A stretch of DNA of 63,630 nt, filler included, from Octopus bimaculoides (Eukaryota): NCBI RefSeq assembly GCF_001194135.2. It is 9 parts of 8 records of this genome, joined end to end, with 100 filler letters (N's around TTAATTAATTAA, not from the genome) between each part and the next. Parts side by side here need not be neighbours in the genome. Positions count along the whole stretch, not along the records: positions 29,495 to 35,022 come from NC_068996.1; positions 35,123 to 44,411 come from NC_068988.1; 7 more parts are not named here. The stretch is one strand, 5' to 3'. Numbering within the stretch: position 1 is the stretch's first letter; each line of letters starts with the position of its first letter. This document shows, in pieces, positions 3,492-60,835 of this stretch. The position numbers were made by a program, and so were the translations under genes. The notes beneath the pieces are model-generated. The model made no database searches. It had not been told where the DNA came from and saw only the letters and a list, made by a program, of their open reading frames with translations.

Positions 3492-5214
3492 GATGTTTTC
3501 ACTCTAATATTCACCCCCTCACTTATATGCTGACTCATTATCCTCACCTCTCGCTTGCTTTCACTCGTTTTCTCTTTGCTGTCTTTTCCTTCACTCACAT
3601 CCACTGTGACACTTAGTAACTTATTCCCATTCACATACAGACTTATTCACTCACAGACTATATTCGAATGGATCACTCATAATTTTCATCCTTCACTCAA
3701 CTCAACTTCATTTACTCACTTACTCACCTGCACACACACTTACTCAAACTTTACTAATATACTCCCTCTTAACTTATTCACGTTTACTCACACACATGAA
3801 TACATACATACTTACATGGATTCATACATACAAAGAGACTTACACACACACACACACATGCACGCACACACTCATGTATATACACTCATTCACGGTCATT
3901 CACACAAAAAGCACACATCCACGTTCACTTACGTGTGTGCGTATTTACACATTTACATATAATCACACACATACACACATATTCACATATATACAAACAC
4001 AAACCTATACAGAAGCGTACGCACATTTATGTCTCACTCACTCACTCACTCACTCGTTCACTCACTAACTCGCTCGCTCACTCACTCACTAGCTCGATCT
4101 CTCACTCAGTCAGTCAGCACCCCCATTTCCTCGACAGCAGTAGTAAAAATCTGAAAGTGTGTCACTAGGCCAGTTCACACGCTTCTCACTACTAGTTGCG
4201 CCGGTCTGAGGNNNNNNNNNNNNNNNNNNNNNNNNNNNNNNNNNNNNNNNNNNNNNNNNNNNNNNNNNNNNNNNNNNNNNNNNNNNNNNNNNNNNNNNNN
4301 NNNNNNNNNNNNNNNNNNNNNNNNNNNNNNNNNNNNNNNNNNNNNNNNNNNNNNNNNNNNNNNNNNNNNNNNNNNNNNNNNNNNNNNNNNNNNNNNNNNN
4401 NNNNNNNNNNNNNNNNNNNNNNNNNNNNNNNNNNNNNNNNNNNNNNNNNNNNNNNNNNNNNNNNNNNNNNNNNNNNNNNNNNNNNNNNNNNNNNNNNNNN
4501 NNNNNNNNNNNNNNNNNNNNNNNNNNNNNNNNNNNNNNNNNNNNNNNNNNNNNNNNNNNNNNNNNNNNNNNNNNNNNNNNNNNNNNNNNNNNNNNNNNNN
4601 NNNNNNNNNNNNNNNNNNNNNNNNNNNNNNNNNNNNNNNNNNNNNNNNNNNNNNNNNNNNNNNNNNNNNNNNNNNNNNNNNNNNNNNNNNNNNNNNNNNN
4701 NNNNNNNNNNNNNNNNNNNNNNNNNNNNNNNNNNNNNNNNNNNNNNNNNNNNNNNNNNNNNNNNNNNNNNNNNNNNNNNNNNNNNNNNNNNNNNNNNNNN
4801 NNNNNNNNNNNNNNNNNNNNNNNNNNNNNNNNNNNNNNNNNNNNNNNNNNNNNNNNNNNNNNNNNNNNNNNNNNNNNNNNNNNNATATATATATATATAC
4901 ATACACTCTCACAAATGGTATTATATTGTCACATGCAGAAACACGCTAATATAAAAGGCGAATGTGCAACTACAGATCGAAAGCAATTACCCACACATAC
5001 TGTCAAACGTAGCGACATATACACGGGTTCTAACCTTACCTTATATATATATTTTTTATATATAGTAATAGTAAGACAACAGGATAACACTGTTAGTAGG
5101 AATGGATTAGTAAGGTAAAGGAGGTGGGGGTGAAATACTGTAACTGAATAAATTAAGAGAAGTTAAAAGGATTTAAAAGCAAGATGTGAAAAGGTGAAAC
5201 AATTTATTTATTAC

Positions 5215-5644: not shown

Positions 5645-6050
5645 CGTGCGCGGATGTGGTTGTATGGCTAGGAGCTCGCTTCTCAACCACATGGGTCTGG
5701 GTTCAGTCCCACTGCGTGGCACCTTAGGCAAGTGTCTTCTACTATAGCCTCGGGCCGATCAAAGCCTTGTGAGTGGATTTGGTGGACAGAAACTGAAAGA
5801 TGTATGTGTGTGTCTTTGTGTCTGTGTTTGTACCCCACCAAAACCACCACAACCACCACCACCGTTTGACAACCGGTGCTGATGTGTTTACGTACCCGTA
5901 AGATAGCGGTTCGACAAAACAACCGTTAGAATAAGTACCAGGCCTTAAAAAACGTACTGGGGTCGATTCTTTCATCTAAAAGCCTTCAAGCCAATGTTCC
6001 AGCATGGCCGCAGTCTAATGAATGAATCAAGTAAAAGATAAAAGATAACA
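5645..6050 (+). mobile_element. SINE family A, inverted relative to 5215-5610
   Basis: Head ggttgtatggctaggagctcgcttctcaaccacatgggtctgggttcagtcccactgcg through to the tail gcatggccgcagtc...aagtaaaagataaaag. Confidence 0.85.
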
Positions 6051-6261
6051 CCCAAAAATGTCTTTTAAAGCTTAAAAACCTCACCTTCACCTTTTCACCT
6101 GTCTTGTCTTGTTCTTAATTGCTTCTAATTTCTTTTAACTTTTCTTAACTAATTCAGTTAAAGTATCTCATCTTCCTACGAACGGCGTTACCCTGTTGCC
6201 TTATACTATAACCATGTTGCCTTAGATACACCAGCACATTATATTTCATATATGTACACAC

Positions 6262-6660
6262 AGACTTAGCTGTGTGGTAAGAAGTTTGCTTCTCAGCCAC
6301 ACGTTTCCTGGTTCAGTATCAGTGCGTGGCACCAAGGGCAAGTGTACCTACGTGCGTGTGTCAGTCTGCCTGTCTATCCGTGAGTGGATTTGGTAGACGG
6401 AAACTGAAAGAAGCTCGTAGTATATATGTATATATATGTATGTATGTGTGTATGTTTGTGTGTCTGTGTTTGTCCCCCTAGCATCGCTTGACAATCGATG
6501 GTGGTGTGTTTATGTCCCAGTAACTTAACAGTTCGGTAAAAGAGACCGATAGAATAAGTACTAGGCTTCCAAAGAATAAGTCCTGGGGTCGATTTGCTCG
6601 ACTAAAAGGTGGTGCTCCAGCATGGCCGCAGTCAAATGACTGAAACAAGTAAAAGTGAGT
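6262..6660 (+). mobile_element. SINE family A copy
   Basis: Head, body and complete tail (ggtggtgctccagcatggccgcagtcaaatgactgaaacaagtaaaag). Confidence 0.85.
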
Positions 6661-7829
6661 AATATATTTATTACAACTATACGAATAAGAAATTTCTTAT
6701 ATTTCCTTTTATTGTAATTTACAAAATATTCTATTTTGAAAATTAATATTCATTTTACTAATTTGTGCATACACCATAAAATTTTAAAAAGAAACTAAAT
6801 CATAATTGTTGTACCAACGTAATAAAATAACCCGATATTACTCGAAGTGGATTGTCAATATGGCCGCAAACATTCTAGTTAATTCATGTATTTGATTTGT
6901 TCAGTCAGATTTAACGTTGCTCTTTTACTCATAAATGTGCGCGTGTCCTCGTGTTAAAAAAAAGTAGTATTGTACCGATATCTTAAATTAAATAGAGAGA
7001 GCTCACATACGTATCGCATATGAGAAATGTTGAGCGACAATTCTTGCGGCTCTTTACGTTCTGAGTTCATATTCTGCCAAGGTTGATTTTGCTTGTCTTC
7101 CTTTCAGGTCATTAAAATAAATAATCAATAAATAATATAAATCAGCTAGCCAGCCGCCTTCCGTACAAAATTTCAGGTCCTTTGCCTATACTAGCGAGGA
7201 TTAGTGCAATTATAGCGCACTGTACAGAAATATTCAGTACAGATTTCTAATACAAGTATAGGGTCACAAATTTAGGATTAGATTGGTCCTAGCACATCAC
7301 CTGCTATTTATTTTATCGATATTTGAAGATGAAAAGTAAGCATATCATTTGCAGAATTTGAACTCAGAACGTAAAGGTAGTTGCCTAAAAATTGCAAAGC
7401 ATTTTGTATAGCACTCTGCCGATTTTGCCAAATCTATAAATTACATAGGAACAGACATGTTATTACAGATGCCATATGTAGCAGCATGTTCTGTCAAACT
7501 AAACAATAGCTTATGTTCTCCCATTTTAAAAGGCAGTGCAATCATACAAGCAAATACATATATACTTATATAGAAATAAAGATATCATATGTAACGTATT
7601 ATATATAAATTCAAATGGCGTTTAAAATTTACGACTGCTGTTTCGGTAGAATTTTATTTATGTAATGCAATGACAAAAGATTACCTTACAGTATTTACTA
7701 ATACCATGAGCTGCAGGAATTCTGCCCTCTTCAGTGATAGCGACGCTTATATCACCGTCCCTAGTACTTGTAACCATAACACATGTGACTGCGGTGATGT
7801 CCTTTCCCAGTTCCATACTAATAACGATA

Positions 7830-8320
7830 ACACCTCTGGTTATATGAACCAACATAGAAAAGGGATTAATTTTAAGCCCACCGCTAGTGAGAAAACCTGT
7901 AATTGATGGGTCTCTCAACTGTCCGTTAGATGTACTTTGTTTATGCTTGAATGTCGCACATAAACGCCGGGTAATAGCCCCGCGTTCCCTCCGGGCTAGG
8001 GGCTGCATTGGCGACACAGTTAATTTCAAGCACCGCTACCGAGCCTACTTGAAATGATTCTCAAATAGAGACTCCAAAGTCTTTACTTCCCTAGCTACAT
8101 ATATACATCACATCAAGTCCCACGACATTTTCTGTACCTTATCCTGGCCCGTAGTTAGTAGGGCTTCATTGTATAAGACTAACCGTCGTGTTTGTAAGTA
8201 TTATTGCAGGGAATCGCTCGCTATTCTTCACCATCATAAAACTTCGTTACTCAATAGATTCTCTGGCATAATCTTCTCGTGTAAGCACAAATTTTCTTCC
8301 ACATTTTCTTATTACGTAAA
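7830..8320 (+). mobile_element. Penelope-like element, GIY-YIG endonuclease region (degraded)
   Basis: EKTCN / NCPLDVLCL / IGDTVNFKHRY / SLATYIHHIKSHDIFCTLSWPVVSRASLYK / ESLAILHH...LLNR...SCKHK follows the Penelope CNC...CPL...YIG...FKxRY...LSxYI...W...LLN...CRH pattern. Confidence 0.75.
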
Positions 8321-29725: not shown

Positions 29726-30807
29726 TTGTTTCATTATTTCTGTCCCATGAGGAATATGTCATTAACTGTCACATCCAAATTTAGTGCCAATCCAACATGG
29801 AATCTTTGGTCATCAGACATTGTAATACTCTGAGGAATATGACATTTAGTTATTACACTAACAGACTTTTATCTCTTAATGTCAAATTCTGAAACTCATT
29901 TTCATTTTAGATTTATACATATATGCATGTATGTGAATATAAGAGCATGTGTGTATGCACATACATACAAACATGTATACACACATGCACACACACACAC
30001 TTATATATATATCATCATCATCATCGTCGTAGTCGTTTAACATCCGCTTTCCATGCTAGCATGGGTTGGACGATTTGACTGAGGACTGGTGAAACCAGAT
30101 GGCTACACCAGGCTCCAATCTGATTTGGCAGAGTTTCTACAGCTGGATGCCCTTTTTACTGCCAACCACTCAGAGAGTGTAGTGGGTGCTATTACTTGCC
30201 ACCTGCACGAAGGCCAGTCAGGAGGTACTGGCAACGGCCACGCTCAAAATGCTGTATTTTATGTGCCACCCGCACAAGAGCCAGAAAGTCCTTACACATG
30301 CCACAGGCACAAGTGCCAGAAAGGCGACGCTGGGCACAGGTGCCATCACGATTTCGCTTTCGCTTGCCCCAATAAGTCATCGCAAGCTGAGTTTCGTGTC
30401 CAATGAAGGAGACGACGTTGGCATGGGTGCCAGTCATCGAATTTAACTCGATTTCGATTTAAAATAGAGAAACCATTTAACACATCTTTAATGATAAATT
30501 ACAATTGTTTCTGTACCAACTCTGCTTACAACACCAGTTTCTGCAATATTCGAAGTGAAAATTTATGTAATATTTGACATTACGTGATATTAGACATTAG
30601 AGTGGCACTTCATCAGACTTGCATCAAAGGTGCACCAAAATGGAGACGAACACCTTCATATGATGAACTTGAAAAATTGTTAAGATGTTAAGATATTTTT
30701 CTTAGCATGAAACTAATGGTAGCCTTAATACATAAAGAAATTTGATCCACCAATGCAGTGTTGAGCACTCATTCTTGCCATTTGACATTCACATGTATAT
30801 ATATATA

Positions 30808-31109: not shown

Positions 31110-31457
31110 ACATCATTCAGGATGAATAGCAGTCAATTTCATCAGTTATATGCAAAAGTTTGGTTGACTCTATGCCCAGAAGACTTGATGCAGTGATTTA
31201 AGCAAGGGCAGTCACAAGAAATATTGATTATAGCAAATAATCCTACAGAGTCTATATATTTTTGTATTGCTTGAAAATTAATATTTCGTTCATATCTTTG
31301 AAAATGTTTATTGTTTTTTTTGTTCCGAATTTTATGTTTGCATGCATAATGTATCTTATTCAATATAAATTTTGTTTGAATTCCTTCGATATTATCAGAG
31401 TAATGGCAATTTTACTGAATTTTTTTAGGGGTGTACATACTTTTGTAAGATAGTGTA
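31110..31457 (+). mobile_element. Tc1-like transposon 3' end with TIR
   Basis: ISSVICKSLVDSMPRRLDAVI is the Tc1 C-terminal SMPRRLxAVI motif. The right end ...catacttttgtaagatagtg-TA is a Tc1-type TIR. Confidence 0.8.
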
Positions 31458-31520
31458 TATATATATATAAATTGACAGAATGAGATAAAAAATCCAAGAC
31501 TGAATAATTAATAAAGAAAA

Positions 31521-31570
31521 GGTCTTACAGCTGTTTCTGGGATATTTTATATATCCCTTCATCAGAGAGG
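31521..31570 (-). ncRNA. Minimal type I hammerhead ribozyme motif (Penelope/retrozyme-like)
   Basis: Minus strand reads tct CTGATGA a gggatat ataaa atatccc a GAAAC agct GTA aga. Intact core, 7-bp stem II with an A.A closing mismatch, palindromic ACAGCUGU stem III, 3-bp stem I. Predicted cleavage is after GUA (31526). Confidence 0.75.
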
Positions 31571-31615
31571 GTACGAGAAAATGTTTCAGTATTAATTATT
31601 GTAGAGATACCTACA

Positions 31616-31646
<31 letters not shown>

Positions 31647-31724
31647 GCATGCACGTGTGTGTGTATGTATATATGTATGTATATATACATAGATACATAT
31701 ATACATATATGCATATAAGAACAA

Positions 31725-32056
31725 CTTCTGCCATATTCCAGGGAGAAAATCTAGAAGTAGTTGATAGCTTCCGCTATCTAGGTGACCAAGTTAGTAATGG
31801 GGGAGGATGTGCTGAAAGTGTAGCTGCTAGAATAAGAATAGCCTGGGCAAAGTTCAGAGAGCTCTTACCTCTGCTGGTGACAAGGGGCCTCTCACTCAGA
31901 GTAAAAGGCAGACTGTATGACACATGTGTACGAACAGCCATGCTTCATGGCAGTGAAATATGGGCTGTGACGGCTGAGGACATGCGTAGGCTTGCAAGGA
32001 ATGAAGCCAGTATGCTCCGATGGATGTGTAATGTCAGTGTGCATACTAGACAGAGT
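31725..32056 (+). mobile_element. RTE-clade LINE RT C-terminal fragment
   Basis: GENLEVVDSFRYLGDQVSNGGGCAESVAARIRIAWAKFRELLPLL...LYDTCVRTAMLHGSEIW...MLRWMCNVSV. Confidence 0.92.
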
Positions 32057-32059
32057 ATT

Positions 32060-32914
32060 AGTACCATGCTCACTCACATACTCGCCAAAAACTATACATA
32101 TATGTACATATGCATATATATATATACACGCATACACAGCCACACTAACACACATGCAACAAACCCGCACCCATACACACGCACGGAAAAAATAATTTTT
32201 TTATAGGGCTAAAAGTGAAAAACGGTGTGGGAAAGCTATAAGGTTAAAATGTGTCTAAACTGCGCATATTTTTGCATGCATGCACATATATCTATATACG
32301 CACGTACCCACACACACTCACAAGCGCACACATAAGGTTCCATGTACGTGTCTATAGACGCACAGGAAAAAAACAGGGTACAGGGGAGGAAACAGAAAAA
32401 TATGTGTAGAAAAAATACAAAACATTAATTCTATAATTATGTAAAATATATAAAAAAAAATTTTAATTTTAAAAATACATAAAAAAATATAAAATCCAAG
32501 TAAAAAGTATAGAAGGGTAAAAAGCTTATACATAGACACAATATAGAAAGCAAATCTTATCAGTACAGTCCTATCAGTAAAAATATTTTAAAAATATATA
32601 AGAAATCTAAGTAAGAAGTATAGAGAGATTAAAAGCTTATACATAGACACAAAATAGAAAGGAAGTCCTATCAGTAAACTCAGGGGGACCGAAAACGTAG
32701 CAAATATTTGGCCACATCTGGACATGATCCGAAAAGTTCAGTCCTTGAATTTAGACACATGGCGAGGTCTAAGCTGCCTTTCCAGATGAGCCATCTTTCC
32801 GTGTGCATGGGTGCGGGTTTGTTGTGTGTGTGTGAGTGTGGGTGTGAATGTGTGTATATATATATGCATATGTATATATATGTATAGTTTTTGGCGAGTA
32901 TGTGGGTGAGCATG
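32060..32914. mobile_element. Long-TIR (foldback/MITE-like) element
   Basis: About 120-bp arms: atgctcactcacatactcgccaaaaactataca...caaacccgcacccat (32065-32175) and its reverse complement (32805-32912). The AT-rich core carries an internal duplication (aagcttatacatagacaca..atagaaag). Confidence 0.75.
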
Positions 32915-33128
32915 TGTGTGTGTTTAAAGCGAGGGTGGTTTAGTATATAAATATAGGCAAATGTACGGATTGGTGCGCTTACGTGAACCTATAGACTTCT
33001 CTCATCCCTTACTTTTACCCCTTCTCCTTACTTAACGGTCTATTAGCTCTTTTGTCTTAATGATGGGCAACCACACAGTAATTTTCCTTTGTTTAACGGT
33101 CATTTTTCACAGGAATTTTCAATGACCG

Positions 33129-33189
33129 GATAACTGAAGAGATGTTGACGTGGGCTCTCACCCCAGCATCCGAAACTCGGAGTTTTATC
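33129..33189 (+). ncRNA. Type I hammerhead ribozyme motif
   Basis: gataa CTGAAGA gatgttg(acgtgggctctcaccc)cagcatc c GAAAC tcgga GTT ttatc. Perfect 5-bp stem I (gataa/ttatc), 7-bp stem II with one extra C before GAAA, and a 2-bp stem III. Predicted cleavage is after GUU (33184). Confidence 0.72.
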
Positions 33190-33224
33190 ATGGCTACCGA
33201 ATAAGTGTCACATATTTTTACAGA

Positions 33225-33267
<43 letters not shown>

Positions 33268-33695
33268 GAAGTATAAGAAAAGAAAAATACTGTAAGTGTA
33301 GATGAACTTTAATTCAATTCAAATCCAAGTTGGTACATCCTTTGCTTGCCTACAATACACCCTGTATTGTAGGCAAGCAAAAGAAAAAAATGAATCACCA
33401 AGGTTGGTTAACTCCGTACCCAATCAAGTTTCAAGCTTAAAGTAAAATTAAAATATTTATTTATTGCAATAGGTAAATATTTCAATTTTACTTTAAGCTC
33501 GAAATTTGATCAGGTATGGAAGGGGTTTTAGCATCTATTTCTTGCAGTGTGTGGTGAGGCGTAAAGCCGATCCTTTGTTATAATTATGTATATAATTATA
33601 ACAAGTTGTAAAATTTACCTATGAGGTTTTTATTTCCATACTGACCACCTAGTAAGATTATTATTGATTTTATCCTTTATTATAATTACATATAA

Positions 33696-33730
<35 letters not shown>

Positions 33731-34058
33731 GCTCAAAAGAACAAACAGAAAATAAATTGCTGATATTTCAGACACTTCATTACATGCTTTTAAATAAACT
33801 ATAATCAGTAATTAAGTTTNNNNNNNNNNNNNNNNNNNNNNNNNNNNNNNNNNNNNNNNNNNNNNNNNNNNNNNNNNNNNNNNNNNNNNNNNNNNNNNNN
33901 NNNNNNNNNNNNNNNNNNNNNNNNNNNNNNNNNNNNNNNNNNNNNNNNNNNNNNNNNNNNNNNNNNNNNNNNNNNNNNNNNNNNNNNNNNNNNNNNNNNN
34001 NNNNNNNNNNNNNNNNNNNNNNNNNNNNNNNNNNNNNNNNNNNNCAAATGCACACATT

Positions 34059-34100
<42 letters not shown>

Positions 34101-34975
34101 CATATACAAATTATGATAGAAAAATATGTCAGAAGAGTGAAGTCTCTTATTTATTTATTTATATACATATATGAAAAAATCTAAATTTTCCTAAGTAATT
34201 GATAGACTTCTGCTTATATATTATATATTGTGTTTTTATATTTGGGTGTTTGGAGCTGGAAAGTAATCATTGTAATTGTTATTGTAAGTGTTGTTGCTGT
34301 TTAGCTCCCATGCCTGACTTCATCCACACAAATATTGATTCTCCAAAGCCAGAAGCAATTTTTAAAAAAACATACAGGAAAATACAAACAAAGTTAAGGG
34401 CAGAGAAAGACAAAGAGAGACAAAGAGGTAAAAGAAAGGGAAAGAAAAAAGACAAAGTAGAGAATAAAGAGAGAAAAACAAGATTGTTTCCGAAGAAAAC
34501 AATCCCTTCATTAGTAAAACCCAGACATTTAATATCTCTATATAAATATATAAACAAAGGAGAGATATTGCCATCATTTTCTGGCTTTTTCTATGTCGTT
34601 ATTAATATATTTCATCTTTCATCTTTTCAGAGTCAATAAAATAGGAACAAGTTGAACACTGGGGCTGATGTAATTGACTTACTCCCAACCCCAAAATTGC
34701 TGGCTTTGTGCCAAAATTTGAAATTTTTAATAATATACACTTCCAAGAACTCTTATTCATATTCTCTTTTACTTGTTTTCAGTCATTTGACTGCGGCCAT
34801 ACTGGAGCACCGCCTTTTAGTCGAGCTAATCGACCCCAGTACTTATTCTTTGTAAGCCTAGTACTTATTCTAATTGTCTCTTTTGCCAAACCGCTAAGTT
34901 ACGGGGACGTAAGCACACCAGCATCGGTTGTCAAGCAATGTTGGGGTGGGGACAAACACAGACACACAAACATAT

Positions 34976-35022
<47 letters not shown>

Positions 35023-35122
35023 NNNNNNNNNNNNNNNNNNNNNNNNNNNNNNNNNNNNNNNNNNNNTTAATTAATTAANNNNNNNNNNNNNNNNNNNNNN
35101 NNNNNNNNNNNNNNNNNNNNNN

Positions 35123-35173
<51 letters not shown>

Positions 35174-35438
35174 CATATACACAATCATGTTCATATTGGA
35201 ACTGGTGACATCTATTTCGCTCAACATGGATTATAATCAAACCATTCTCTCTTTCTTGATTCCACTAATAGACATTACCGGTTTCCTTCATTTGCTCATA
35301 GATCTACCTAATGAACACCTATTTTAATTGAAGTTTTAACTGAATTTCTTCTCCCTTTCTTGAGAAAATGAATATGAACTACAATAATTATCACTGATGA
35401 GTAATATTCCTTCACTGTCACATCTGTTTAACCTCTCC

Positions 35439-35525
35439 TTCTCTGATGATAGAATAATCAGCTATGGAATCCTCACTTGACACGATGTTCCAATAGCTTG
35501 GATATTCTAGAAACAGCTGTTAGAG
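35439..35525 (+). ncRNA. Minimal type I hammerhead ribozyme motif with elongated stem II
   Basis: ttct CTGATGA tagaata...tattcta GAAAC agct GTT agag. Perfect 7-bp stem II, extended by agctat-ggaa/ttcc-aatagct. Same ACAGCUGU stem III as the 31.5 kb motif, and a 4-bp stem I. Predicted cleavage is after 35521. Confidence 0.72.
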
Positions 35526-37133
35526 ACTATGTATACCTTTTTATTATATATCTAAATTAAATGCCTTTGTCAAGTTTGGCCAAATGGTTTGCATTTTCAT
35601 TTCTGGTTTAATCTATATATATATACAACTATATTCATACATATATACACGTGTGAGTGATATTTGTATACATATGTGCATGCAAATATTTGTGCATTTG
35701 TGTCAGCATGTGTGCATGTAGCATGCACGATTTCTCTTTTCACTCATTTCTAGTGGAACACACACAAGTGAAGGTCTGTACTGGAATGTAATAAGACAAC
35801 ATTATAGATCTTTTTTGTTTCTGTTCTTAAAGATATTTAAAGTGAATCTGTTACTAATTTAAGTTATATGTATACAGTAATCCCTCACCATATTGTAGTT
35901 CTTCTATTGTAGTTTATTACTTAAGCTTATGTCAATTCCTCCGTGGTGTTGCTTTGCATTTAGAATAAGATAAATATATACAAATTATGAAAATCATCAT
36001 CACCATCATCGTTTAACGTCCTCTTTCCATGCTAGCATGGGTTGGACGATTTGACTGAGGACTGGCAAGCCAGAAGGCTACACCAGGCTCCAATCTGATC
36101 TGGCAGAGTTTCTACAGCTGGATACCCTTCCTAACACCAACCACTCCAAGAGTGTAGTGGGTGCTTTTACGTGCCACCAGCATGAGGGCCAGTCAGGCGG
36201 TACTGGCAACGGCCACATTCAAAAATGGCCAGGACAGTGTTTTCCCTTCGTGAATTTTCACCTATCACAGGGGTTTTGGAATGTAACGCCTGCAATAGTC
36301 AAGGGATTACTGTACTATAAAATCTTCTGATTGATATAGTACTTGTTAGAAATTAGTGGGGTTATCTCTTAATGCCTGTTACTTATTCTTATGGTCATTT
36401 TGTCAAACTACTAAGTGAAGGGGACATAAGCAAACCAAGACTGGTTGTCAGGTGATAGGCGAGGATAAACACACAAACACATACATACATACAAGCATAC
36501 ATACACACGCACTCACACACTCACACACACACACACACACACACACTCACAAACATGCACAAATCTACTGTTGATATTGTTGAAATTCCAGAGCCTTAGC
36601 TCTGATGATGCATCCTTCCAGCTTGGGCCAATTGAAGTACTGGTCCAAGACCCAACTCACCAGTTAGAGGGAAACTTAGTTAGAAACTTAAGAGAGGCAC
36701 TTAGAAAAGTTTTTGCTCTCTACTGCTACAAATAACTTGTTGCGTTATGTAGGTTGATCAGGTACTTATTTCATCAAACCAGAAAGAATGAAAGGCAAAG
36801 TCAATCATGGCAGAATTTGAACTCAGAATGTAAAGACAGATGAAATATCACTAATGATTTTGTCCAGCATGCAAATGATTCTGCCAGCTCACTTAATGAT
36901 AATGATGGACTCACCCATTGATGACAATGTATGAGTGTTCAGCTTTAGCTAAACAACCTGCACAAAGGATTTGTTATCAAATCGACATTACCTGAACAGG
37001 TGCACAGTGTGTCACCCATCAGATGTTGAAGTGATTGCAGAGCACTATGAGATGAAGTGTTTTGTTCAAGAAACCATGATCTCGTGGTTTCAATGGATGC
37101 AATGCCCAAACCACTTGGTCATACATCTTCACT

Positions 37134-49661: not shown

Positions 49662-50071
49662 ACACACACATGCACACATGCACCTACACATGCACACACA
49701 CATACACACATACATACACATTTTAGTTTTACTACTAAAATTGCAGCTTGAACTACAACTGAAAGTATGGTATTGAAACTGCCTGACATAGAAGGCTAGA
49801 AGCGGTTTTTCCTTGAGCAAGTAAATGTAGATTAAAGTAAAAATAAAAAGCAAAACGTTTGGCATCGCTTGAAAAGGACATTTAATTTAAATAGAGTATA
49901 TAGACATACAGAGTCTCTTACAGCTGTTTCTGGAATAGTGGTTTCTTACAGCTGCTTGGCTATTTTAGAAACAGCTGTAAGAGACCTTGTATGCTTATAT
50001 TCTCTGTCTAAATGAAATTTTCTTTTCAAATGATGCAACGATTTTACTTTTTCCTTTTACCTTACTCTATA

Positions 50072-59960: not shown

Positions 59961-60169
59961 TTTCAAGTTTACAACTGGCAAAAAGAAAAAAAGGAAAAAG
60001 ATAAGAAAAAGAAAAGAAAAAGAAAAGGAAAAAGGAGAAGATCTATTCAAACAGTTTTGTGTAGATGTGATGAAATTCTCCTGTCATTTTGTTCAACCCT
60101 CCAGCGCGTGATGTTAATAACTCACAAACATATTTCTCTTCACGCATTTTGAGGACTGAAAGTGTAGCA

Positions 60170-60835
60170 GATTCACAATATTTTCTGAGAATATGCACTT
60201 TCAAGTCTTTTTTCAAAATTGCAGCCGTTTGATGTAAAACGTTCAGCTAGTTCTGTTGAACTACCGTTATTATGCCTGACATCATAGCTGTGCCCATTGA
60301 ATCTTTTGTTTAATTGTTCTGTTGTACAACCAACATAAATCAAGTTCAGTTGGTTGCATTTTATTGCGTACATCAAATGGGAATCTTTACACGTCCCACC
60401 TTTCGTGTAAATCACAACAGTTCTGATGGAATTGACTTGACACATGTTATCGCACAATGAACACGATTTACCTGTCTTGCGGCTGTTTTTCAAGGTACAG
60501 CGTGCAGAAATTCCATTGTTGATTTTCTTGAAGTCGGAAGTAGAGGTTAATATTTCTGATATTTTGATGCCGTCTAAAGGCTACAATAGGCGTCTGAGAA
60601 AATATTTGTTTCAAACGAGAATATTTTTTCCGCAACATGCTGGTAACTTTCGTATAACACTTTTGAAATGCCAGCAAACTTGTGTAATTTCCACATTTGT
60701 TGTCTTGGCGTTTTCATGCTTATAAAATCATTCCTAAGAGACCTATTGCTATAGGGATTTTTTTCAGACTGTACATAAAGAGTATCTCTGTTGCCAGATC
60801 TTTATTATTGGACATCCCTTCCTTTTCTTTTAGAA
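60170..60835 (-). mobile_element. Penelope-like element, RT-distal to GIY-YIG fragment
   Basis: LKQIFSQTPIVAFRRHQNIRNI; CSLC...LMYAIKCNQLNLIYVGCTTEQLNKRFNGHSYDVR (GIY-YIG with YVGxT...RFNGH). Confidence 0.88.

What the first reader, a model, noticed from the sequence alone, without database searches (positions are those of the whole stretch)
31521..35525. Three core-intact minimal hammerhead ribozymes within 4 kb: a possible octopus retrozyme / Penelope-derived self-cleaving RNA system
Seen in sequence: three independent CUGANGA-stem II-GAAAC-loop-GUH-stem I folds at 31521-31570(-), 33129-33189(+) and 35439-35525(+). Their stem II sequences differ yet each pairs with itself, which argues against chance or simple copying. 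None sits beside protein-coding Penelope sequence, although Penelope GIY-YIG relics occur at 7.8 and 60.2 kb. Established: Penelope-like elements and metazoan non-LTR retrozymes carry minimal type I hammerheads with a very short, palindrome-capped helix III that can cleave as dimers and yield small linear or circular RNAs. Inference: these are members of short non-autonomous ribozyme-bearing families in this genome, some possibly still active when transcribed.
Basis: partly seen in the sequence, partly recalled or inferred. Interest (0 to 1): 0.75.

Follow-up and report, generated by a model that had tools for sequence, protein, structure and literature searches.

The report
Hydra-type Penelope retrotransposon hammerhead stumps
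The three hammerhead-ribozyme motifs are real, each sits at the broken-off tail end of a different, very common Penelope-type jumping gene of an already described group, and they would likely cut RNA only in pairs; one of the three lies on another chromosome, so this is an ordinary finding and not a cluster.

Summary
The motifs are real: 4 descriptor hits in the window against 0.027 per shuffle. 'Three within 4 kb' is a packing artefact: two lie 1.6 kb apart on G000:C16, the third on C8. Each belongs to a different dispersed family with a fixed 3' end at (TA)n and a ragged 5' end. [quoted passage not shown] The window itself holds 42 endonuclease codons 330 nt from motif 2. Protein motifs, target and ribozyme layout match the Hydra clade of Penelope-like elements, for which an octopus family with a hammerhead is published (PMC8557442). 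They are not retrozymes: 0 of 200 listed motifs has a same-strand neighbour within 1 kb. Within families pairs break and almost never covary. RNA reads show no end at the cut site. Cleavage is untested. The scan noted such stumps before on other pieces of this genome. Verdict: three new families of a known kind; low interest.

The parts
31457..31607 (-). Family A copy: about 150-nt 3' stump of a Hydra-type Penelope-like element; 3' end runs into (TA)n, 5' end into a (CA)n tract; 13-nt deletion 3' of the ribozyme
   Evidence: blastn to longer copies L004, L014, L016 at 84-86%; alignment of 30 copies
31523..31568 (-). Hammerhead 1: helix I 3 bp (family mode 4), CUGAUGA, A.A opposition, helix II 7 bp + 5-nt loop, GAAA, palindrome ACAGCUGU, cut 3' of 31526 (GUA)
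32065..32800 (-). Inverted upstream part of the family B copy: end of the ORF and 5' part of the 3' UTR, joined head-to-head to the ribozyme-bearing part
   Evidence: 87% over 751 nt to L092
32674..32799 (-). C-terminal 42 codons of the GIY-YIG endonuclease, up to its stop
   Evidence: tblastn 81% identity, E=1.6e-17
32802..33233 (+). Family B copy: 3' end of the 3' UTR, running into (TA)n
   Evidence: 83% over 476 nt to L092; 90-95% to the top genome copies
33129..33189 (+). Hammerhead 2: helix I 5 bp, CUGAAGA, helix II 7 bp + 2x2 loop + 4 bp, one extra C, GAAA, palindrome ACUC-G-GAGU, cut 3' of 33184 (GUU)
33225..33264 (.). (TA)n target microsatellite at the 3' end of the family B copy
   Evidence: sequence; (TA)n at the 3' end of 25 of 29 family B loci
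35023..35122 (.). Pack joint, not genomic: C16 to the left, C8 to the right
35195..35617 (+). Family C copy: about 420-nt 3' stump between TA-rich tracts
   Evidence: 80% over 433 nt to L063; no Penelope protein match in the 9.9 kb fetched around and upstream of it (L104)
35439..35525 (+). Hammerhead 3: helix I 4 bp, CUGAUGA, 60-nt interrupted helix II, GAAA, palindrome ACAGCUGU, cut 3' of 35521 (GUU); as a monomer predicted to slip into an inactive rod

Best explanation
Each motif lies in the 3' end of a 5'-truncated copy of a different reverse-transcriptase/GIY-YIG retrotransposon family that matches the Hydra clade of Penelope-like elements, and in the parent elements it likely cut the RNA as a dimer, while these solitary copies are likely silent leftovers. 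Steps: (shown) parent layout RT - CxCX5C linker - GIY-YIG - 0.9 to 1.4 kb 3' UTR - hammerhead - 3' end at (TA)n. (Inferred from established PLE biology) the endonuclease nicks a (TA)n tract, reverse transcription starts at the RNA 3' end and usually stops early, sometimes restarting in inverted direction, so the ribozyme-bearing end is the part that piles up in thousands of copies. (Inferred; shown in vitro at low rate for other PLE hammerheads) two hammerheads pair their palindromes into an 8-bp helix III and cleave after GUH to release the element from a longer transcript. (Shown) after insertion the stems decay without compensation.
For: Sharp 3' edge and ragged 5' edge in all three families, 30 loci each. 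(TA)n right after the 3' end in 28 of 30 A, 25 of 29 B, 9 of 28 C loci (many C copies run on into a tail). RT + endonuclease + hammerhead on one strand: B in L092, with a second inverted hammerhead upstream; A in L101 and L223; C in L230. Of 30 loci found with a family C endonuclease/UTR query, 7 hold both an endonuclease match and the family C hammerhead region downstream. Endonuclease codons in the window's own copy. Inverted second hammerhead in 12 of 90 loci (two are one place), same-strand in 2. Hydra motifs: DKT in L092, CxCX5C in B and A, CxxC..E and N..CxH; among 48 homologues of 680 aa or more, RW[KR] 43, DK[TS] 48, CxCX5C 34. Published Hydra hammerheads have the same 4-bp palindromic helix III (actc-g-gagt in 2 families) and often a 1x1 mismatch at the base of helix II (File S2). 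Genome counts: 1681 and 870 core-intact motifs, controls 3 and 0. Palindromes form duplexes of -11.1 and -9.7 kcal/mol and no hairpin.
Against: No intact ORF of families A, B or C was found among the loci fetched; L101 and L223 have assembly gaps between endonuclease and hammerhead. No tree with named clade references was built, so clade placement rests on motifs and a by-eye comparison. Family C has Tyr or Phe in place of the second linker Cys in 3 of 3 copies seen. The core is a little better kept than the flanks in A (5/319 vs 44/1072, p=0.036) and B (2/290 vs 20/812, p=0.084), not in C (p=0.56); the copies were picked by likeness to a query holding the motif, so this is weak, but it does not favour purely neutral decay. 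Family B sequences are read in RNA, so 'silent' is not shown. No cleavage was measured.
Confidence: 0.88

Rival explanations
1. They are monomers of short non-autonomous non-LTR retrozymes that multiply through 170-400-nt linear and circular RNAs cut from tandem repeats.
For: Most copies are short and non-coding; family B RNA exists; retrozymes are reported to derive from PLE ends and to leave monomers (bioRxiv 10.64898/2026.07.22.740005); earlier unchecked notes report about 340-nt retrozyme units elsewhere in this genome.
Against: No fixed 5' end or unit length; continuity with RT/endonuclease; 0 of 200 listed motifs with a same-strand neighbour within 1 kb against 7 opposite-strand pairs (counted by eye); one possible 580-nt direct repeat (L019) and one partial piece (L038) in 90 loci; no joint closing a circle and no pile of ends in 930 reads.
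Confidence: 0.05
2. Some copies, these included, cleave host transcripts that run through them, alone or by pairing in trans with other copies that share the palindrome.
For: Core intact in 26 of 30 A and 26 of 30 B copies; at least 1681 motifs share one palindrome; family B is read in RNA from many different copies.
Against: No compensatory change within families: 0 in A, 0 in B, 2 of 210 helix II cells in C against 40 broken; 0 of 14 pairs changed on both sides in 15 sequences. Motif 1 has lost a helix I pair and motif 3 is predicted to misfold (helix I probability 0.2 and 0.01). Published minimal PLE hammerheads showed no monomer cleavage and low dimer cleavage (PMC4209133). No dip or end pile-up at 33184/33185.
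Confidence: 0.06
3. Chance matches in AT-rich repetitive DNA.
For: No Rfam hammerhead match to E=1.
Against: 4 hits against 0.027 per shuffle; genome controls 3 and 0; helix II, not asked for by the pattern, has at least 6 of 7 pairs in 22 of 30 matches against 0.78 expected.
Confidence: 0.01

Closest known systems
Hydra clade of Penelope-like elements, e.g. Hydra-1_Obim, Hydra-2_Amil, Penelope-13_HM, Penelope-16_HM (Craig et al. 2021, PMC8557442; seen: passages, section 11, supplement parts 1-2 and search passages)
   Same: C-terminal GIY-YIG, DKT, CxCX5C linker, CxxC and CxH around E and N, (TA)n target, inverted 5'-truncated partner, hammerhead near the 3' end with a 4-bp palindromic helix III and often a 1x1 mismatch under helix II. 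Family B RT matches Hydra-1_Obim at 33 of 48 residues in one stretch (by eye).
   Different: None of the three hammerheads is among the 26 Hydra rows of File S2; Hydra-1_Obim has another helix II and palindrome. 3' UTRs here are 0.9-1.4 kb, so full elements would exceed the usual 3 kb; optional 3' tails are about 60-150 nt rather than 30-40; family C lacks the second linker Cys.
Minimal hammerheads of metazoan PLEs (Cervera and de la Pena 2014, PMC4209133; seen: parts 1-2 of 4 of the text)
   Same: Long helix II (7-8 bp), short helix I (4-5 bp), palindromic 15.2-16.2 region, many sequence families per genome, mostly single motifs or opposite-strand pairs 100-700 bp apart.
   Different: That paper stresses one extra base between 9 and 10.1 and G10.1-C11.1 next to GAAA; here an extra base also (A) or only (B) stands 5' of GAAA, and family C has U-A or C.A there. 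Helix III is 8-9 nt rather than nearly absent.
Metazoan non-LTR retrozymes (Cervera and de la Pena 2020, PMC7229834; seen: passages; Li et al. bioRxiv 10.64898/2026.07.22.740005; seen: part 1 of 5 and passages)
   Same: Type I hammerhead in low-GC, non-coding, dispersed repeats; likely PLE-related.
   Different: Retrozymes are 150-450-bp head-to-tail units with canonical hammerheads and abundant circular RNA; these families have no unit length, almost no tandem copies and coding upstream parts.

Membership tests
Hydra-clade PLE | [quoted passage not shown] | tested here: met
   L092 (B), L101 and L223 (A), L230 (C); Pfam RVT_1 and GIY-YIG only below cut-off, E 0.055, 0.065, 0.0006
Hydra-clade PLE | DKG changed to DKT | tested here: met
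   DKT in L092, family B; region not present in the A and C copies fetched; DK[TS] in 48 of 48 homologues of 680 aa or more
Hydra-clade PLE | RWK motif at the N-terminus | tested here: inconclusive
   All fetched A, B, C copies are cut before it; RW[KR] in 43 of 48 long homologues
Hydra-clade PLE | CxCX5C linker | tested here: met
   Met in B (L092) and A (L101, L223); family C has CxY/FX5C in L093, L227, L231
Hydra-clade PLE | CxxC and CxH flanking the conserved E and N | tested here: met
   L092, L091, L101, L226-L231 translations
Hydra-clade PLE | CCHH motif absent from the endonuclease | tested here: inconclusive
   L092 endonuclease is collinear by eye with Hydra-1_Obim; no alignment to Neptune or Penelope references was made
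Hydra-clade PLE | Insertion into (TA)n | tested here: met
   28 of 30 A, 25 of 29 B, 9 of 28 C loci (no background control; many C copies extend past the stretch scored)
Hydra-clade PLE | Hammerhead near the 3' end | tested here: met
Hydra-clade PLE | Generally under 3 kb, single ORF | tested here: inconclusive
   No full-length copy found; L092 spans about 2.85 kb from just before DKT to the 3' end and lacks the N-terminus, so the whole would be a little over 3 kb
Hydra-clade PLE | Falls in the Hydra clade of an RT tree | not tested
   No named reference sequences were available to the tools
PLE (general) | 5' truncation, inverted partner copies, optional tail | tested here: met
Non-LTR retrozyme | Head-to-tail 150-450-bp repeats with a hammerhead in each unit | tested here: not met
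   0 of 200 listed motifs with a same-strand neighbour within 1 kb; 2 of 90 loci; a short-read assembly can collapse arrays
Non-LTR retrozyme | Non-coding element of fixed length | tested here: not met
   Ragged 5' ends continuous with RT/endonuclease
Non-LTR retrozyme | Abundant unit-length linear and circular RNA | tested here: inconclusive
   No end pile-up or circle-closing joint in three ordinary cDNA runs of one study, about 6% of each read; such libraries can miss these RNAs
Type I hammerhead ribozyme | Conserved core CUGANGA / GAAA / UH with helices I-III | tested here: met
   helix III only as an intermolecular duplex
Type I hammerhead ribozyme | Self-cleavage | not testable with these tools
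   Needs an in vitro assay

The most novel reading that the evidence does not exclude
Because several unrelated Hydra families keep the identical dimerisation palindrome ACAGCUGU (at least 1681 core-intact copies), hammerheads of different families could pair in trans and switch each other on, so that solitary stumps inside host transcripts are cut only when another palindrome-matched RNA is present: a genome-wide, code-matched network of conditional ribozymes.
Probability: 0.06. Interest if true: 0.65.

Novelty: new member of a known kind. Interest (0 to 1): 0.2.

Why it matters
Mainly for annotation: three Hydra-type families absent from the published list, which with their sister subfamilies give more than 2,500 core-intact hammerhead motifs in this genome, and a warning that scans of this genome will keep finding such motifs side by side (5 of 90 three-kb loci hold a motif of a second family). 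The role of PLE hammerheads is still open (PMC8557442); families that share or differ in the palindrome offer a simple matched/mismatched dimer test.

Tried and rejected
Rfam scan: no hammerhead family to E=1. A direct 168-nt tandem suspected at L020 proved an inverted pair. 'Open frames' of 1,100-2,300 aa in the RT search are runs of N read through: no intact element among the 20 stretches fetched. Three same-strand motif pairs 3.6 kb apart were fetched as possible pLTR-ORF-pLTR units: L221 has RT on the other strand, L222 is mostly gap, L263 has RT-endonuclease between two hammerheads but of different subfamilies, so none is a clean unit. Idea that motif 3's U4 arose by CpG decay from a C4 master (CG 11, TG 12, CA 5 of 30): rejected, a genome-wide pattern gave TG 33, CG 3, CA 2, TA 1 of 39. 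Sequencing-run search: no holder on record as RNA was listed; not evidence. Expression of a near-full family B copy and of families A and C remains untested. Pfam on three long homologues gave nothing relevant. Lunse et al. on PLE hammerhead dimers could not be read; it is cited only through passages of PMC6765202 and may describe the same junction variants. The palindrome list required palindromes and is not used as evidence. Literature searches for octopus hammerheads returned only PMC8557442 as relevant; PMC6962438 was seen as a listing only.
Full report
Observation. The three motifs are at the stated places. A descriptor asking for CUGANGA, helix II of 5 bp or more, GAAA, one closing pair, UH and helix I of 3 bp or more gave 4 hits in the window: the three named and a weak one at 30616-30500. 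In 300 local dinucleotide shuffles the mean was 0.027 and the maximum 1. All three have a palindromic helix III, which was not asked for. Rfam listed no hammerhead family to E=1. The clustering claim fails: a pack joint lies at 35023-35122; motifs 1 and 2 map 1.6 kb apart on G000:C16 and motif 3 maps to C8. Two motifs of different families within 3 kb are not rare here: 5 of 90 loci, one of them the window's own pair.

Each motif is one copy of a dispersed family. The searches gave 1536, 2518 and 354 first-look candidates for motifs 1, 2 and 3 (families A, B, C); 40 of each were scored and 30 kept as loci. All-against-all coverage shows a sharp edge shortly 3' of the ribozyme and a ragged edge 5' of it. 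(TA)n follows the 3' end in 28 of 30, 25 of 29 and 9 of 28 loci (no background control); some copies carry an optional tail first. A second, inverted hammerhead stands in 12 of 90 loci (two of these are one place), a same-strand one in 2. Exact patterns counted 1681 short-helix motifs with ACAGCUGU and 870 of the family B type, with reversed controls of 3 and 0. Among the first 100 listed of each, no motif has a same-strand neighbour within 1 kb and 7 opposite-strand pairs do (by eye). Helix II, not part of the first pattern, has at least 6 of 7 pairs in 22 of 30 matches against 0.78 expected, and helix I has 3 bp or more in 23 of 30.

The families are ends of coding elements. L092 (family B) reads RT (5894-6718, DKT just upstream), CxCX5C linker, GIY-YIG to 7409, 860 nt of UTR, hammerhead at 8270, with an inverted hammerhead-bearing end at 5176. 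L101 and L223 show the same order for A, with assembly gaps between endonuclease and ribozyme; L230 shows it for C. Of 30 loci found with a family C endonuclease/UTR query, 7 hold an endonuclease match with the family C hammerhead region downstream on the same strand. In the window, motif 2's copy is a 5'-inverted insertion: 32802-33233(+) joined head-to-head to 32800-32065(-), the latter opening with the last 42 endonuclease codons (81% identity, E=1.6e-17). Motifs 1 and 3 sit in stumps of about 150 and 420 nt. No intact ORF was found; the long frames listed are gaps.

Which kind. Craig et al. 2021 (PMC8557442, section 11) define Hydra by a C-terminal GIY-YIG, RWK, DKT, a CxCX5C linker, CxxC and CxH around E and N, no CCHH, (TA)n targets and canonical hammerheads. 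DKT is seen in B, the linker in A and B (C has Tyr or Phe for the second Cys), CxxC and CxH in all three; RWK lies in the part that the fetched copies lack. Of 99 homologues of the L092 RT, the 48 of 680 aa or more have RW[KR] in 43, DK[TS] in 48, CxCX5C in 34. Their File S1 lists Hydra-1_Obim from an octopus, and File S2 gives its hammerhead and those of other Hydra families, with the same 4-bp palindromic helix III and often a mismatch between core and helix II. None of the three motifs is in that table, so these are further families. No tree was built.

How it works. Shown: the layout, the target, truncation and inversion. Inferred from established PLE biology: reverse transcription primed at a nicked (TA)n copies the 3' end first and usually aborts, which explains why the ribozyme end is so abundant. 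Inferred for the ribozyme: the palindromes cannot form a hairpin but form duplexes of -11.1 and -9.7 kcal/mol, so cleavage would need two hammerheads. Cervera and de la Pena (PMC4209133) saw no monomer and low dimer activity for such motifs, and described single motifs and opposite-strand pairs 100-700 bp apart as here. An inverted partner lies on the other strand and cannot be the dimer partner in one transcript.

Selection. Within families, pairs mostly break: both-side changes were 0 in A, 0 in B and 2 of 210 helix II cells in C (40 broken), and 0 of 14 pairs in 15 A-type sequences. Between B subfamilies the distal helix II changes from GUGG/CCAC to GCAG/CUGC in 3 of 100 listed motifs (by eye). 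This fits selection on the fold during transposition and decay afterwards. Against pure neutrality, the core is slightly better kept than the flanks in A (p=0.036) and B (p=0.084), not C (p=0.56); cores are intact in 26, 26 and 7 of 30; the samples were chosen by likeness to motif-bearing queries. Motif 1 has lost one helix I pair; motif 3 is predicted to slip into a rod.

RNA. On window 32895-33215, three cDNA runs of one study (about 6% of each read) gave 334, 382 and 214 reads, of which 3, 1 and 2 were 99% alike or more; both orientations were about equal, depth does not dip at the cut site and no place had many ends. The family is transcribed from many copies; this copy's expression and any cleavage are not shown. 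The runs may be of a related species and their strandedness is not given. Families A and C were not tested.

Verdict. Real ribozyme motifs in decayed 3' ends of three Hydra-type Penelope-like families: new members of a known kind, not a retrozyme system and not a cluster. Earlier notes of this scan reached the same reading on other pieces of this genome; I had that reading before the look-up and do not count them as support. Interest 0.2.

Noticed in passing
window 49736-50030: A head-to-head junction of two ends related to family C; each keeps the GAAA-palindrome half of the hammerhead and has lost the CUGANGA half.
   Followed up: partly
window 7917-8294 (+): Decayed Hydra-type GIY-YIG end with CxxC..E and CxH; in another piece of the pack and not linked to the three motifs.
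   Followed up: partly
window about 60150-60480 (-): GIY-YIG remnant with a CxxC-type finger ahead of it, more like Naiad or Neptune than Hydra (translation; judged by eye).
   Followed up: no
L062, L069, L078-L080, L086-L089 and others (family C); L205, L212 (A-type): A minority lineage carries C at core position 4: CG 11 and CA 5 of 30 top copies, but CG 3 and CA 2 of 39 pattern matches. U4C lowers activity in vitro yet allowed viroid infectivity (PMC3088659 passage).
   Followed up: partly
3' ends of L003, L004, L011, L012 (A); L056, L057, L060 (B); L062, L063, L065, L066 (C): Optional 3' tails of about 60-150 nt; tail-less copies stop at an internal TATA or GATA that merges with the (TA)n target, which suggests priming by microhomology inside the RNA.
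   Followed up: partly
L037, L069, L083, L102, L108, L111, L162, L176, L183, L186: At least eight further hammerhead types with other helix III palindromes, several near Hydra-type RT (the scan required palindromes).
   Followed up: no
L110:7700-9480 (-): A decayed element reaching its N-terminus whose RT reads much like the published Hydra-1_Obim (by eye).
   Followed up: partly
window 33327-33380: Near-perfect inverted repeat of about 25 bp per arm, 140 nt right of the family B copy; probably a small non-autonomous DNA element.
   Followed up: no
window 31721-32060 (+): About 110 open codons resembling the C-terminal part of a LINE reverse transcriptase (label recalled, no family search), between motifs 1 and 2.
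   Followed up: no
window 30500-30616 (-): Fourth descriptor hit with palindrome ACAAUUGU and a 98-nt inner part; family not searched, may be chance.
   Followed up: no
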